This document shows positions 34,001 through 37,000 of a DNA stretch of 64,000 bases, piece by piece. Position numbers: made by a program. Each line of letters begins with the position of its first letter. Position 1 is the first letter of the stretch. Source of the DNA: Escherichia coli (GTDB lineage Bacteria; Pseudomonadota; Gammaproteobacteria; Enterobacterales; Enterobacteriaceae); NCBI RefSeq assembly GCF_041886205.1, contig NZ_CP169029.1. The stretch is one strand, 5' to 3'.

Positions 34001-37000
34001 GCATTCATCAGCGCACTGACGGTTTCGATAAAATCCATGCCTAACCAGGTATTTCTGTCACTGAAGATGTTGTCATGTTCCCCCGGCAGGCGAAGCAGGA
34101 TCCGCCGTACCCGGGAGCAGGACTGTTCACGCAGCGCACGGTTGAGAACACCGATGATTTTGTTCTGATAAGACGGCCAGAAGGGCGCCATGCTATAGTC
34201 GAAATAAGGAATACCATTCATAAGATATGTTCCGTTATGCGCAGCCCACAACGCGTCCTGCCCGTGGATACGCTGACGTGTTATGGCTTGCGGAATGAGA
34301 TTGATAGAATAAGTGAAGAACCGAAGCAGAACGGGAAGATCAGGTAACCGACAAGGGACAGAACACCGGATGCAGGTTCAGGGTGAATGATCTCCGTTGA
34401 CTTCAGTTCACATCATTAAGCAAGGCGGTAAGGTTTTACCGACGGAGTGTTTCCAGGAGAGGAAGCAGATAAAAATACCGTTGCATGACTTCAGGACGAC
34501 TTTTTCAGAAAACGAGCTAAGGGCGTCAACCACGCCCTTACCGTGGCATACGCTCATGCACCGGATGCCGTTTTACAGGATTTACCTGCCATCCAGTAGA
34601 CGCCCTGGCCCACGACTGCAACCATAATTACGTTGCCCGGAACCGTCATGCAGCTTCGTTTCATATTTCACTAGATAACTGGCTCTGTTCCGGGCTTTCT
34701 GCAGCGCTTCCACATCACCACGCTTGATCCAGAGAACAGCGGCTTCACCCGGCTTTTTGTCTGAAGCCTTCCTGGTTTCAGAACATCCACCCGACAAAGG
34801 CGTATCATCGGAAGAAGGGCGAGCATCAGATGATGCCGGTTTACGGAAAGGCGTCCGCCTGGAAAAATGAACCAGTCCATTACCCTGCCAAGGTTCAAGA
34901 TGCAGAGCGCTACACCATGCCAGCTTGATCAGTGTCGCCAGCGAAGAAGGAACAGTGAAATCCCCTGGCGAGCACCAGGTATCTTTGTTGAGCAGTAATA
35001 TCACGTGATAATGTTTCCTGCCTTTTTCCTTGCCAAACTCCCGACACCAGAAATAATGCAGGGTGGTTGCACGCACACGCTTGTTGGCACATCTTTTTTT
35101 CCGCTGGTAAGCCTGAATTTTGGCTTTCAGGGATGCAAAAAAACGAGAAATCACCGCTGAATCCGGATCGGGATCCATGATGGTGACAGGCATATACTCA
35201 GGGAAACGTAAATCCACCCGGATTAACGAGACGGCACGGTGCTGCGCCAGAGCACTGTCGAGAAGGCTGTCAAAACGGGATAACCAGTAAGCATTGTGTA
35301 TTGGTTGATTCATGATGAGAGATCTCCGTTGATTTGGATTGACTTCACATCATTAATCACCGCAGTAAAACTTTACGGCATCCTGTCATTAAGCAATGCT
35401 ACAACTCTCTGATTAAGAGAGATTGAAACGGAATAAACCATCCCGTAACGAAAAGAGAATCCTGCACGTAAGGTAAAAACACGCAGCAACAGCATGAATG
35501 GATTTGAAAACAATATGGATGACGAAAAAAGTCAAAAGGGAAACGGATCAACAGAACGTGCAAACAAAACATCAAAAACGCAATCAGAACGCTTTCTGGC
35601 GCTGTGAATCAACAACAACACCAAAACCTACAGCTTAACCACACAACTCAATCACAGAGCCGAATAGCGCGCTTAAAACCTGTTTACAGATAACCCCACC
35701 CCAAGAACAAAAACCACTAACATCAGAATCGATTTTCTTATCCAGAAAATGTTACGTTTCACTACACACCATAAAAACGATTAACCATCGATAACGTAAA
35801 CCTTATCTGAATCAAAACACCAAAACCGTTCATCACACTTTCGCAATGCAAGAAGAAACCTCATGACAAAAAGAATGACCTTACACGGAAAAGAAAAACG
35901 TCAGGAATCGTTAATGCCTCAATCTGATTGTTATCAAAAAATTCAGAAAGTCGTTTAACAGAATCGTCGTAAGCACATCGAAAAGAACGTCAGATTACTT
36001 CAGGAAAGCTCGGGTTGATTTAGCGTAAAGATACTTTTCTCATGCTAACGTCGAAACTCGAAATCTCAGGAAAGGTTAAACGTAACATCAGTAAAATCGA
36101 ATAGCAGATTGATTGCTGAAGCAGAAAGGTTTTACAGCAGCATTAAACTGATTTAGTTAACGTAAAGATTTACTAAACTGGATGTGTATATAGTATCATA
36201 CCGACATTCTCAACATCTTCAGACTTCCATACATACTGGGTGTTAATTTTTCACTTTTACAGCCAGCATGGAGTTTTCTGTCCTAAAAACAGAGCAGATT
36301 TACTCTGGAATTATTTTCTCTACCTCAGAAAACTTGCTCTCAATAATCTGCTATGGCTTCGTAGTTTCTGTTGTTCTTTTCATAAAAGTTATAAGTCATT
36401 GTCATAATCATACGATAATCACTTTATGTTAGTTTTTACTGTCATACGCTACTGACTTTTCAGTCATTGCCAGAAAGGGGGGCTTTTTACTTCCATTTCA
36501 CCACTCAACAAATGCAAAACTTGTCCAGTAAAGCGGACCACCTCTTGCTCACAAGCAACGAATCGTCTCCAGGAACAGCCCTCAAATATTGCAGAAACAA
36601 AAACAACAAAACCCTCATTATCACTGATGTTCGGAAATTTCCCTGAACAAAAAAAACGAAAACAAAATGAGACGCATTATCATTAATGTAGTCAAAAAGA
36701 CGTTATTGTGGCTTTCAGTTAAATGGTACTATTTCTCATAAATCCACTTAACTTTTTTTACTGATTCATCCCAGAGAACCACTTTATCAGTAAAAAATGA
36801 ATTATATAGATTGACGAGTTTTTCTGTTTCAGTTATTCCCAATGTATTATGTATAAGTTGTAGATATGCTTTTATCCAGATTTCTTTACCCTCCTTCCAC
36901 TTATCTATAAAACTTTCCAGCTTACTTAATCGTTGATTTATAAAAAACGAATCAATATCATGAAAAAGCTCAACAAGAAAACAGCACGAGACAATCTCAA

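What the first reader, a model, noticed from the sequence alone, without database searches (positions are those of the whole stretch)
35314..36728. 1.4-kb ORF-free, strand-asymmetric region between the Gp2-like genes and the 376-aa gene
No ORF of 60 aa or more on either strand across about 1.4 kb, with marked A/C richness on the plus strand and scattered short direct repeats (for example TGATTTAG..CGTAAAGAT at about 36016 and 36151). The region lies just upstream of a Gp2-family (replication-initiator-like) gene, so it could hold an origin with iterons, a long 5' leader, or non-coding RNA.
Basis: seen in the sequence. Interest (0 to 1): 0.45.

Follow-up and report, generated by a model that had tools for sequence, protein, structure and literature searches.

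The report
Long non-coding leader upstream of Gp2 gene
The 1.4-kb gene-free stretch is real non-coding DNA: most likely the promoter, operator and unusually long untranslated leader of an island-borne HUH (Gp2-like) nuclease/AlpA operon, joined to the tail of a swappable cargo cassette, and it shows no sign of being an RNA gene.

Summary
35314-36728 is the longest ORF-free gap in the window and has its most A+C-rich strand (+5 SD). Its short repeats are not above chance.

The stretch occurs unannotated in 1877 of 5426 complete E. coli genomes. It is a mosaic of two parts:
- 35314-36317 is the upstream region of the minus-strand Gp2/YagK-family gene.
- 36318-36728 belongs to an exchangeable cargo cassette.

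A ~130-nt element (36178-36314) is conserved upstream of Gp2 homologues in Providencia, in three uncultured lineages and in K-12 yagK. It has an AT-rich core with CCGAC and a box ACTCTGGAATTAT. In K-12 the core coincides with a published sigma-70 promoter for yagK. By homology the window has TTGAGA-17-TATACA, which implies a ~865-nt U/G-rich, C-poor leader. The leader ends in a hairpin that occludes the Gp2 ribosome-binding site, and similar hairpins recur in other lineages.

Other alleles carry a 128-246-nt iteron-like array just downstream of the promoter core. The window allele has collapsed it to one unit.

Gp2 itself has HUH and Tyr motifs and an HUH fold, so a replication origin remains possible but unproven. 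There is no evidence for a structured RNA, an Rfam family or decayed coding sequence.

Verdict: an ordinary but undescribed regulatory region of moderate interest.

The parts
35303..35379 (-). Gp2-proximal leader. It has a small hairpin (35362-35379) and a long hairpin (35303-35361) that pairs the Shine-Dalgarno GGAG (35327-35324) and the AUG (35313-35311) with an upstream AUGAUG/UCC segment.
   Evidence: RNA fold gives -23.1 kcal/mol, z=-2.7, with 1 of 200 shuffles as good. RNAalifold on 11 alleles gives the same pairs, all invariant, so there is no covariation either way. 35320-35353 is one of two blocks with at least 97% identity in 45 alleles. Analogous SD/AUG-occluding hairpins are predicted in K-12 yagK (z -3.1), Providencia (-2.7), L101 (-2.4) and Morganellaceae (-4.8).
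35380..36169 (-). Body of the putative leader. It is A/C-rich on the plus strand, so U/G-rich and C-poor as minus-strand RNA. It is E. coli-specific, mosaic and holds scattered conserved blocks.
   Evidence: Composition. Substitutions show no 3-nt periodicity. Mean identity among alleles is 81-87%, below the 90% at Gp2 third codon positions. The plus strand is almost unstructured, with MFE -3 to -12 kcal/mol per 120 nt. The segment is absent or much shorter in Providencia, Morganellaceae and K-12 yagK. Module positions 183-416 are replaced by an unrelated 1.1-kb segment in L105 and L098.
36170..36189 (.). Collapsed repeat array. TTACTAAACTGGA is followed by a single ATGTGTAT unit. Other alleles carry 128-246 nt of GTGTAT / AAAACACTTAGTA repeats here.
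   Evidence: The window allele is the shortest of the array alleles recovered (42 nt between the anchors against 128-246 nt). TRF finds period 13, 5.2 copies, consensus AAAACACTTAGTA in allele L007. Providencia has 3 copies of CTATGTGTTT at the equivalent place.
36183..36213 (-). Conserved core, read as the putative sigma-70 promoter of the Gp2 operon. -35 is TTGAGA (36213-36208), then a 17-nt spacer containing ATGTCGG, then -10 TATACA (36190-36185). The inferred start is near 36178.
   Evidence: The core TATAT(T)AC..CC(G/A)AC is conserved in E. coli, Providencia, L096, L101, L102, Brenneria and K-12 yagK. Leave-one-out nhmmer recovers the window site as the top hit in 64 kb (E=0.054) and the site in 3 other lineages. 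It also finds the yagK upstream region (E=0.0017). Shimada et al. 2014 (PMC3946193, Table 2) list a leftward constitutive RpoD promoter TTTAGA-16-TATAAT for yagK in the yagK-yagL spacer, marked H-NS. Those hexamers lie on the conserved core at L104 7126-7154. In the CFT073 allele the scan calls CTGAGA-16-TATGAT at this site.
36299..36317 (.). Conserved upstream box TTTACTCTGGAATTATTTT, with core ACTCTGGAATTAT at 36302-36314. It is a perfect palindrome ATAACTC-TG-GAGTTAT in Providencia. It also marks the left boundary of the cargo slot.
   Evidence: The box is present 55-95 nt from the core in E. coli, Providencia, L096, L101, L102, Brenneria and yagK. All E. coli alleles are alike up to this box and diverge after it according to the cargo type. 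The local hairpin CAGAG...CTCTG (36290-36307) is terminator-like in the window, but its left arm is not conserved.
36318..36728 (-). Non-coding tail of the 376-aa-gene cargo cassette; the whole cassette is about 36318-37969.
   Evidence: This sequence is shared only by alleles carrying the 376-aa gene. The cassette is 1652 nt, one of at least 6 cassette types of 1.6-2.7 kb at this exact slot in 58 loci. The right boundary lies about 78 nt before the GTPase ATG. The tail contains a 36-nt direct repeat (36595-36630 / 36654-36689, 75%) and the only promoter-like match in the region, on the plus strand at 36379-36408.
34582..35313 (-). Gp2/YagK-YfjJ family gene (243 aa), an HUH-type nuclease. It is the gene this region serves.

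Best explanation
35314-36317 is the non-coding control region of the leftward operon that starts with the Gp2-like HUH nuclease gene. In relatives this operon continues into an AlpA-type regulator gene.

Shown here:
- The DNA is non-coding. It is conserved but mosaic, and it occurs in about a third of complete E. coli genomes.
- A ~130-nt element (core plus ACTCTGGAATTAT box) is conserved across genera upstream of Gp2 homologues.
- In K-12 the core coincides with a published sigma-70 promoter for the homologue yagK.

Inferred:
- In the window the homologous promoter is TTGAGA-17-TATACA at 36213-36185 on the minus strand. It would start a transcript near 36178 that runs about 865 nt to the Gp2 AUG.
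- The ACTCTGGAATTAT box, about 90 nt upstream of the -35, is a binding site for a dimeric regulator.
- The repeat array that other alleles carry just downstream of the start is an operator or iteron array. The window allele has lost it.
- The leader is U/G-rich and C-poor as RNA, so Rho should load poorly on the sense transcript. The antisense transcript is C-rich, G-poor and unstructured, so it should be a good Rho substrate.
- The last ~60 nt fold over the ribosome-binding site and start codon, which keeps translation of the nuclease low until something opens the hairpin.
- The AT-rich DNA is probably also silenced by H-NS, as noted for the K-12 spacer.

36318-36728 is not part of this unit. 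It is the 3' tail of a cargo cassette inserted between the box and the GTPase promoter.
For: - Non-coding: no ORF, no codon periodicity, and indels that are not multiples of 3.
- Distribution: 1877 of 5426 genomes, with no annotation other than a 57-aa 'hypothetical protein' in some records that is not conserved as an ORF (2-nt deletion at its start codon in several alleles).
- Synteny: GTPase or another gene, then the intergenic region, then Gp2 followed by AlpA, is kept in Providencia, Brenneria, Morganellaceae and metagenomic lineages whose Gp2 is 34-43% identical.
- Core plus box: seen in 7 lineages and supported by leave-one-out profile searches.
- Promoter: the yagK promoter from genomic SELEX falls on the core (PMC3946193; sequence).
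- SD-occluding hairpin: z -2.7 in the window, and it recurs with different sequences in 4 other lineages at z of -2.4 or lower.
- Composition.
- Cargo boundary. In Providencia the two flanks of the slot are only 28 nt apart.
Against: - There are no transcript data for this locus.
- The inferred -10 (TATACA) lacks the conserved final T, and the promoter scan did not call the site in the window.
- Promoter-like matches in these AT-rich regions are not more frequent than in shuffles.
- The SELEX paper locates RNA polymerase binding only to the spacer; its hexamers are a best match within that spacer.
- An 865-nt leader is unusually long.
- Two terminator-like hairpins lie on the minus strand inside it, at 35496-35480 and 35444-35425.
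- In alleles L105 and L098 the leader is interrupted by 1.1 kb carrying an opposite-strand ORF. This argues either for a second promoter nearer to Gp2 or that continuity of the leader does not matter.
- The body of the leader is less conserved than synonymous sites of Gp2, so much of it may be unconstrained filler.
- The hairpin is invariant, so covariation gives it no support.
Confidence: 0.5

Rival explanations
1. Replication (or transfer) origin of the island. The HUH nuclease Gp2 would bind the direct-repeat array as iterons and nick within the AT-rich conserved core (TATAGTATCATACCGACAT). This would start rolling-circle replication of the excised island, as at geminivirus, circovirus or pMV158-type origins that sit in the promoter region of their rep gene. 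This reading can coexist with the promoter reading.
For: - Gp2 has intact HUH and Tyr motifs and an HUH fold.
- The core is the only non-coding element conserved across genera next to Gp2.
- Lineage-specific arrays of direct repeats flank it in E. coli (TRF period 13, 5.2 copies), Providencia and L096.
- The core contains TATATTAC-like sequences in 4 lineages. From my own knowledge these resemble HUH nick motifs; this was not tested.
- Related Pseudomonas islands with Gp2-like genes, alpA and RadC are mobile satellites (PMC12595487).
Against: - The window allele lacks the array.
- No conserved stem-loop surrounds the core. One 7-8-bp stem at about 36211-36245 is variable and shows no compensatory change.
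- The core is explained by a sigma-70 promoter in K-12.
- No experiment shows that these islands replicate.
- AT-rich resemblance to known nick sites is expected by chance.
Confidence: 0.25
2. Largely functionless spacer. Only the ends matter (the Gp2-proximal ~60 nt and the core plus box). The A/C-rich body would be neutral filler produced by slippage of A/C-rich short motifs and by recombination between island copies.
For: - The body is E. coli-specific and missing in relatives whose intergenic regions are 116-750 nt.
- It is less conserved than Gp2 synonymous sites and is mosaic.
- Some alleles carry hexanucleotide CATCAC expansions.
- 234 nt of it are replaced by unrelated DNA in L105 and L098.
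- There is no structure signal.
Against: - A composition bias of 5 SD kept across alleles that differ by up to 27% is hard to get by drift. The Providencia intergenic region shows the same skew (G 7%).
- Several internal blocks are invariant in 45 alleles, although the block at 35790-35814 was the search pattern and is therefore biased.
Confidence: 0.2
3. A non-coding RNA gene (an sRNA, or a long structured or sponge RNA) transcribed from either strand.
For: - The region is large, conserved and unannotated.
- The plus strand carries three TCAGGAA motifs and many AAC repeats.
- A terminator-like hairpin at 36290-36307 could end a ~110-nt plus-strand RNA starting at the core.
Against: - No Rfam match at E of 1 or lower inside the region.
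- Folding z-scores are mostly between -2.5 and +2 on both strands.
- No compensatory pairs were found.
- The 36290-36307 hairpin is not conserved among alleles, and no terminator is called in CFT073.
Confidence: 0.05

Closest known systems
yagK promoter region (yagK-yagL spacer) of cryptic prophage CP4-6, E. coli K-12
   Same: The downstream gene is homologous (YagK/YfjJ family). The same core (TTATATAATACCTATCCAACATC) and box (ACTCTGCAATTAG) lie in the same orientation. RNA polymerase sigma-70 holoenzyme binds the spacer, and a leftward promoter TTTAGA-16-TATAAT with an H-NS mark is listed (PMC3946193). An SD-occluding hairpin is also predicted.
   Different: The K-12 spacer is 271 nt with a leader of about 170 nt. 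It has no A/C-rich body, no repeat array and no cargo slot, and the neighbour on the far side is yagL rather than a cargo gene and GTPase.
Origins of HUH rolling-circle initiators placed in the rep promoter region (geminivirus/circovirus intergenic region; pMV158 dso with nic and bind loci)
   Same: An HUH nuclease gene sits next to an AT-rich conserved core flanked by lineage-specific direct repeats, within a promoter region.
   Different: No nick-site stem-loop was found. The repeats are absent from the window allele. Nothing shows nicking or replication. The comparison with these origins rests on my own knowledge of them, not on a test.
Intergenic region of Ff filamentous phages upstream of gene II
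   Same: A non-coding region of several hundred nt lies directly upstream of a gene II-type initiator gene (Pfam PF23343 match).
   Different: The Ff region is built of strong hairpins (packaging signal and the two origins). Here the DNA and RNA are almost unstructured. The only sequence similarity noticed was one shared 8-mer, which is what chance would give (by-eye comparison with the f1 origin recalled from memory, not a tool result).
Long 5' leaders with translation-blocking structure in enterobacteria (for example the rpoS leader)
   Same: A leader of several hundred nt whose 3' end pairs with the ribosome-binding site.
   Different: No trans-acting RNA or protein partner is known here. 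The transcript has not been shown to exist. The leader body lacks conserved structure.

Membership tests
Sigma-70 promoter plus 5' untranslated leader of the Gp2 operon | -35 and -10 hexamers with 16-18 nt spacing on the gene's strand | tested here: inconclusive
   TTGAGA-17-TATACA lies at 36213-36185 and is homologous to yagK TTTAGA-16-TATAAT. The scan did not call it in the window but did call the site in CFT073. Such matches are no more frequent than in shuffles.
Sigma-70 promoter plus 5' untranslated leader of the Gp2 operon | RNA polymerase binding and a mapped transcription start | not testable with these tools
   The only evidence is for the K-12 homologue, from genomic SELEX (PMC3946193).
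Sigma-70 promoter plus 5' untranslated leader of the Gp2 operon | Conservation of the promoter element upstream of orthologous genes | tested here: met
   Core plus box are found in 7 lineages. Leave-one-out nhmmer gives the expected site as top hit in 4 of 6, and yagK is found at E=0.0017.
Sigma-70 promoter plus 5' untranslated leader of the Gp2 operon | Leader uninterrupted by terminators or genes | tested here: inconclusive
   Two weak terminator-like hairpins lie on the minus strand. Alleles L105 and L098 carry a 1.1-kb insertion with an opposite-strand ORF.
Rolling-circle (HUH) origin with iterons | Adjacent initiator with HUH and catalytic Tyr motifs | tested here: met
   [not shown]
Rolling-circle (HUH) origin with iterons | Array of direct repeats (iterons) next to the nick region | tested here: not met
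   The window has a single unit, 42 nt between the anchors. Other alleles have 128-246 nt. Repeats elsewhere in the window region are at chance level.
Rolling-circle (HUH) origin with iterons | Conserved stem-loop presenting the nick site | tested here: not met
   No conserved hairpin surrounds the core. The nearby 7-8-bp stem is variable and shows no compensatory change.
Rolling-circle (HUH) origin with iterons | Site-specific nicking or replication dependent on the initiator | not testable with these tools
   This needs biochemistry or copy-number assays.
Known RNA family (Rfam) or structured non-coding RNA | Covariance-model match, or thermodynamic and covariation support | tested here: not met
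   There is no Rfam match in 35314-36728 at E of 1 or lower. The z-score profile is flat. There are 0 compensatory pairs.
Protein-coding gene or recent pseudogene | Open frame, or 3-nt periodicity of substitutions and frame-preserving indels | tested here: not met
   The longest ORF is 59 aa. Phase counts of variable sites are uniform, P 0.28-0.91. Indels of 1, 2, 4 and 13 nt occur. The PGAP 57-aa ORF seen in some alleles has lost its start codon in others.
H-NS-silenced AT-rich island DNA | G+C well below the host average; H-NS occupancy | tested here: inconclusive
   G+C is 37% against 50% for the window. H-NS is marked for the K-12 yagK spacer. Occupancy at this locus cannot be tested here. 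A-tract phasing is weak.

The most novel reading that the evidence does not exclude
The conserved core with its flanking repeat array is the origin (nick and binding sites) of a so far unrecognised family of HUH-initiator-driven, AlpA-controlled, satellite-like genomic islands of Enterobacterales. The ACTCTGGAATTAT box next to it marks a precise non-coding slot where unknown, probably anti-phage, gene cassettes are exchanged. If so, this one region would be both the replication switch of the islands and a landmark for finding new defence genes.
Probability: 0.2. Interest if true: 0.65.

Novelty: new member of a known kind. Interest (0 to 1): 0.35.

Why it matters
About a third of complete E. 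coli genomes, including CFT073 and O157:H7, carry this unannotated region. It sits in front of the operon that, by analogy with AlpA-controlled islands, decides whether the island becomes active.

Two practical gains follow:
- Knowing where the promoter, operator box and translation-blocking hairpin lie gives concrete targets for testing how these pathogenicity-island backbones are switched on.
- The conserved non-coding anchors on either side of the cargo slot give a simple sequence handle for collecting the cassettes inserted there. At least six types were seen; the proteins of the three scanned (376 aa, 407 aa, 262+316 aa) match no Pfam or PHROGs family, and the 376-aa one also none in PADLOC.

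If Gp2 proves to nick the core, the region would define an origin for a new group of rolling-circle elements.

Tried and rejected
- Rfam at E of 1 or lower over 33000-39000 gave one sub-threshold PhotoRC-I hit, which lies inside the Gp2 coding sequence.
- Sliding-window folding on both strands showed no sustained structure.
- RNAalifold on the core-to-box segment and on the proximal leader found no compensatory pairs.
- The codon-periodicity test for a decayed gene was negative.
- Self-alignment and k-mer statistics for internal duplications or iterons in the window were at chance level, apart from CGTAA. CGTAA sites are only moderately more conserved than background, and two of the nine are unique to the window allele.
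- A-tract helical phasing as a sign of bent DNA was weak.
- Phage and plasmid collections gave no phage match and only four E. coli plasmid matches.
Two viral-contig scans each found the same single locus.
- By-eye comparison with the f1 origin (recalled from memory, no tool call) found one shared 8-mer, as expected by chance.
- The 36290-36307 hairpin as a conserved terminator was rejected because its left arm varies among alleles.
- A literature search for yfjJ/yagK, inovirus Gp2 and yfjP/yeeP/ykfA found no description of this region.
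Full report
**Observation**

The interval 35314-36728 contains no ORF of 60 aa or more on either strand; the longest are 59 and 58 aa. It is the longest such gap in the 64-kb window, at 1415 nt against 853 nt for the next. Random shuffles of the same sequence lack a 60-aa ORF 27% of the time. The gap therefore says 'non-coding' rather than 'improbable'.

The plus strand is strongly A- and C-rich. Between 35480 and 35900 it is A 43.5%, C 25.2%, G 14.0%, T 17.3%. AT skew reaches 0.46 and GC skew -0.45. The 400-nt window starting at 35501 has the highest A+C fraction anywhere in the window, 5 SD above the mean.

Repetition in general, however, is no higher than in dinucleotide shuffles, and no internal alignment is significant. 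Only CGTAA is enriched, 9 against 1.8 expected, and I picked that motif after looking at the sequence. Seven of its nine sites are somewhat better conserved than background, and two are unique to this allele.

**Setting**

The flanking genes are these:
- a 243-aa YagK/YfjJ ('inovirus Gp2') family gene at 34582-35313 on the minus strand;
- a 376-aa gene at 36729-37859 on the minus strand, with no match in Pfam, PADLOC, NCBIfam or PHROGs;
- a YeeP-like GTPase gene at 38044-38928 on the plus strand.

The region is therefore upstream of Gp2 and downstream of the 376-aa gene.

The same arrangement occurs in 1877 of 5426 complete E. coli genomes, almost always chromosomal. The stretch is not annotated, apart from a 57-aa 'hypothetical protein' in some records that is not conserved as an ORF: several alleles have a 2-nt deletion at its start codon. 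It is absent from the phage collection and present in only four plasmid records.

**It is two things, not one**

I aligned ten alleles, and then 45 distinct alleles recovered from metagenomes. All copies are alike from the Gp2 start codon up to the sequence TTTACTCTGGAATTATTTT at 36299-36317. After that box they diverge completely according to which gene or genes follow.

Homology resumes only about 78 nt before the GTPase start codon. At least six different cassettes of 1.6-2.7 kb occupy this slot in 58 loci, and the 376-aa type (1652 nt) is the commonest. In Providencia the two flanks of the slot are 28 nt apart. Hence 36318-36728 is the non-coding tail of a cargo cassette, and only 35314-36317 is the upstream region of Gp2.

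**Not coding and not a structured RNA**

- Variable sites show no 3-nt periodicity, and indels of 1, 2, 4 and 13 nt are common.
- Rfam gives nothing inside the region at E of 1 or lower.
- Folding z-scores on both strands are unremarkable, and the plus strand of 35640-35960 is nearly structure-free.
- Consensus folding finds no compensatory changes.
- The body of the region is mosaic and less conserved (81-87%) than third codon positions of Gp2 (90%).

**What is conserved**

Gp2 homologues of 34-43% identity occur in Providencia, Brenneria, Morganellaceae and several uncultured lineages. They keep the neighbourhood: Gp2 is followed by an AlpA-family gene and diverse defence-like cargo. On the other side lie a GTPase, antirestriction, DUF932 and RadC genes. 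Their upstream intergenic regions range from 116 nt (L099) to about 1.36 kb (L096); most are 400-750 nt, but L096 and L101 (1.1 kb) are as long as the E. coli region.

These regions share with E. coli a two-part element. An AT-rich core ends in CC(G/A)AC; in the window it is TATATAGTATCATACCGACAT at 36187-36207. A box ACTCTGGA(A/G)TTAT lies 55-95 nt to its right.

I built a profile from five lineages and searched the sixth. The expected site was the top hit in:
- the 64-kb window (36178-36314, E=0.054);
- Providencia (E=7e-5);
- L101 (E=8e-7);
- L096 (E=0.07).

L102 was weak and Brenneria was missed. The full profile also finds the region just upstream of K-12 yagK in CP4-6 (E=0.0017). It finds nothing near yfjJ in CP4-57, where the gene order differs.

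**The core is probably the Gp2 promoter**

Shimada et al. 2014 (PMC3946193) list the yagK-yagL spacer among the sites bound by sigma-70 holoenzyme in genomic SELEX. They give a leftward promoter TTTAGA-16-TATAAT for yagK and an H-NS mark. In the K-12 sequence those hexamers lie exactly on the conserved core, with the CCAAC motif in the spacer.

The homologous positions in the window, read on the minus strand, are:
- -35 TTGAGA at 36213-36208;
- a 17-nt spacer, ATGTCGGTATGATACTA;
- -10 TATACA at 36190-36185.

In the CFT073 allele the simple scan calls this site as CTGAGA-16-TATGAT. In the window it does not. If this promoter is used, the Gp2 mRNA starts near 36178 and has a leader of about 865 nt.

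**The end of the leader**

The 60 nt next to the start codon are nearly invariant in 45 alleles. As RNA they fold into a hairpin spanning 35303-35361, at -23.1 kcal/mol and z -2.7. It pairs the Shine-Dalgarno sequence and the AUG with an upstream AUGAUG/UCC segment.

Because the sequence does not vary within E. coli, covariation cannot support or refute the hairpin. In other lineages, however, different sequences are predicted to do the same thing:
- yagK, z -3.1;
- Providencia, z -2.7;
- L101, z -2.4;
- Morganellaceae, z -4.8;
- Brenneria and L096, where the Shine-Dalgarno sequence is paired but the z-scores are not significant.

This recurring architecture is the best sign that the Gp2-proximal part is transcribed and limits translation of the nuclease.

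**The body of the leader**

The A/C-rich part (35380-36169) has no counterpart in most relatives and is partly replaceable. In L105 and L098, 234 nt of it are substituted by an unrelated 1.1-kb segment carrying a 176-aa ORF on the opposite strand. Some alleles have CATCAC hexanucleotide expansions.

The Providencia intergenic region shows the same skew, with G at 7%. My inference, which is not shown, follows from the base composition:
- The sense RNA is C-poor and therefore a poor Rho substrate.
- The antisense RNA is C-rich, G-poor and unstructured, and therefore a good Rho substrate.

That would let a long untranslated leader survive while suppressing transcription in the other direction. 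Equally, much of it may be unconstrained filler.

**The missing array**

Other alleles carry 128-246 nt of short direct repeats between TTTACTAAACTGG and the core. The units are (A/C)(T/C)GTGTAT and AAAACACTTAGTA, and TRF reports period 13 with 5.2 copies. Providencia has three CTATGTGTTT units at the same place, and L096 has three ACTCTCTG units.

The window allele is the shortest array allele recovered, with one unit only (36183-36189). Only four genomes match it at 99% or more. Whatever the array does, this copy has lost it.

**Is it an origin?**

Gp2 is a credible HUH nuclease:
- The motifs RVDLR, KHYHV(I/L)LLLN and R-A-x-Y-L-x-K are conserved down to 35% identity.
- The AlphaFold2 model has mean pLDDT 75.8.
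- Weak PHROG matches are to replication initiators.

Such enzymes need a DNA target, and a conserved AT-rich core flanked by lineage-specific direct repeats in the rep promoter region is the classical layout. Related Pseudomonas islands with Gp2-like genes, alpA and RadC behave as phage satellites (PMC12595487).

Against this, I found no conserved stem-loop at the core. The window lacks the repeats. The core already has an explanation as a promoter. No replication of these islands is documented. I give the origin reading 0.25; it can coexist with the promoter reading.

**Comparison with known things**

The closest known object is the yagK promoter region of CP4-6. The window region is an expanded relative of it, with an added A/C-rich body, a normally present repeat array and a cargo slot. 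It resembles HUH origins in layout only. It does not resemble the hairpin-rich intergenic region of Ff phages. It is not a member of any Rfam family.

**Verdict**

This is a real, widespread, unannotated regulatory region. It is most likely the promoter, operator and long leader of the Gp2-AlpA operon, joined to a cargo-cassette tail. It is not an RNA gene, and in this allele it is not an iteron array. It is of moderate interest. The most useful by-products are the cross-genus conserved core and box, and the precisely bounded cargo slot.

Noticed in passing
window 36318-37969, compared with L006, L007, L008, L009, L017, L021, L025, L026, L063: There is a precisely bounded cargo slot between the ACTCTGGAATTAT box and the ~78-nt GTPase promoter region. 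At least 6 cassette types of 1.6-2.7 kb occupy it. The encoded proteins that I checked (376 aa; 407 aa; 262 + 316 aa) have no Pfam or PHROG match; PADLOC was run only on the 376-aa one. In K-12 the analogous stretch between yfjJ and yfjP holds the defence genes abpAB and rnlAB.
   Followed up: partly
window 34384-34441: A second, diverged copy of the ~60-nt Gp2-proximal leader element lies just downstream of the Gp2 stop. Its ATG is changed to CTG and it carries a perfect CGGTAA..TTACCG hairpin. It sits upstream of the 196-aa ORF 33661-34251, and the same duplicate is in L001 at 976-1035.
   Followed up: partly
L105 2128-3228 and L098: In some E. coli alleles, 234 nt of the A/C-rich body are replaced by an unrelated 1.1-kb segment. 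It encodes a 176-aa protein on the opposite strand with a weak NikA-like (mobilisation accessory) Pfam hit, E=0.011.
   Followed up: partly
window 37966-38043: The conserved GTPase upstream region contains TTTCAC-17-GATAAA, with the same spacing in Providencia. A perfect hairpin AACCGGAT-TAGTGTG-ATCCGGTT lies just before the ribosome-binding site.
   Followed up: no
window 36595-36630 and 36654-36689: A 36-nt direct repeat (75% identity, 59 nt apart) ending in CATTATCA(C/T)T(G/A)ATGT lies in the non-coding tail of the 376-aa cassette. The only promoter-like match of the region is also in this tail, on the plus strand at 36379-36408.
   Followed up: no
window 29621-32215 (-): An 864-aa protein has UvrD-type helicase and ankyrin-repeat domains and matches GajB-like models in PADLOC (E 2.8e-12). 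It may be a defence gene in the leftward part of the island.
   Followed up: no
window 32723-34251 (-): A run of overlapping minus-strand ORFs (145, 118, 117 and 196 aa) lies where other islands have an intact 'restriction endonuclease' gene after Gp2 (L001, L004, L005). It looks like a frameshifted remnant, but this was not verified.
   Followed up: no
window 34823-34890 (-): A sub-threshold Rfam hit to PhotoRC-I (24.3 bits against a gathering score of 45, E=0.005) lies inside the Gp2 coding sequence. It is most likely chance.
   Followed up: no
L091 4284-5255 (Brenneria); L092 4634-5593; L096 1679-2644: In several relatives the gene divergent from Gp2 is an unknown protein of 319-323 aa. The Brenneria one has a faint YagK_YfjJ_C hit (E=0.0076), which hints at a second, very diverged HUH-like paralogue.
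   Followed up: no
[not shown]
   Followed up: no
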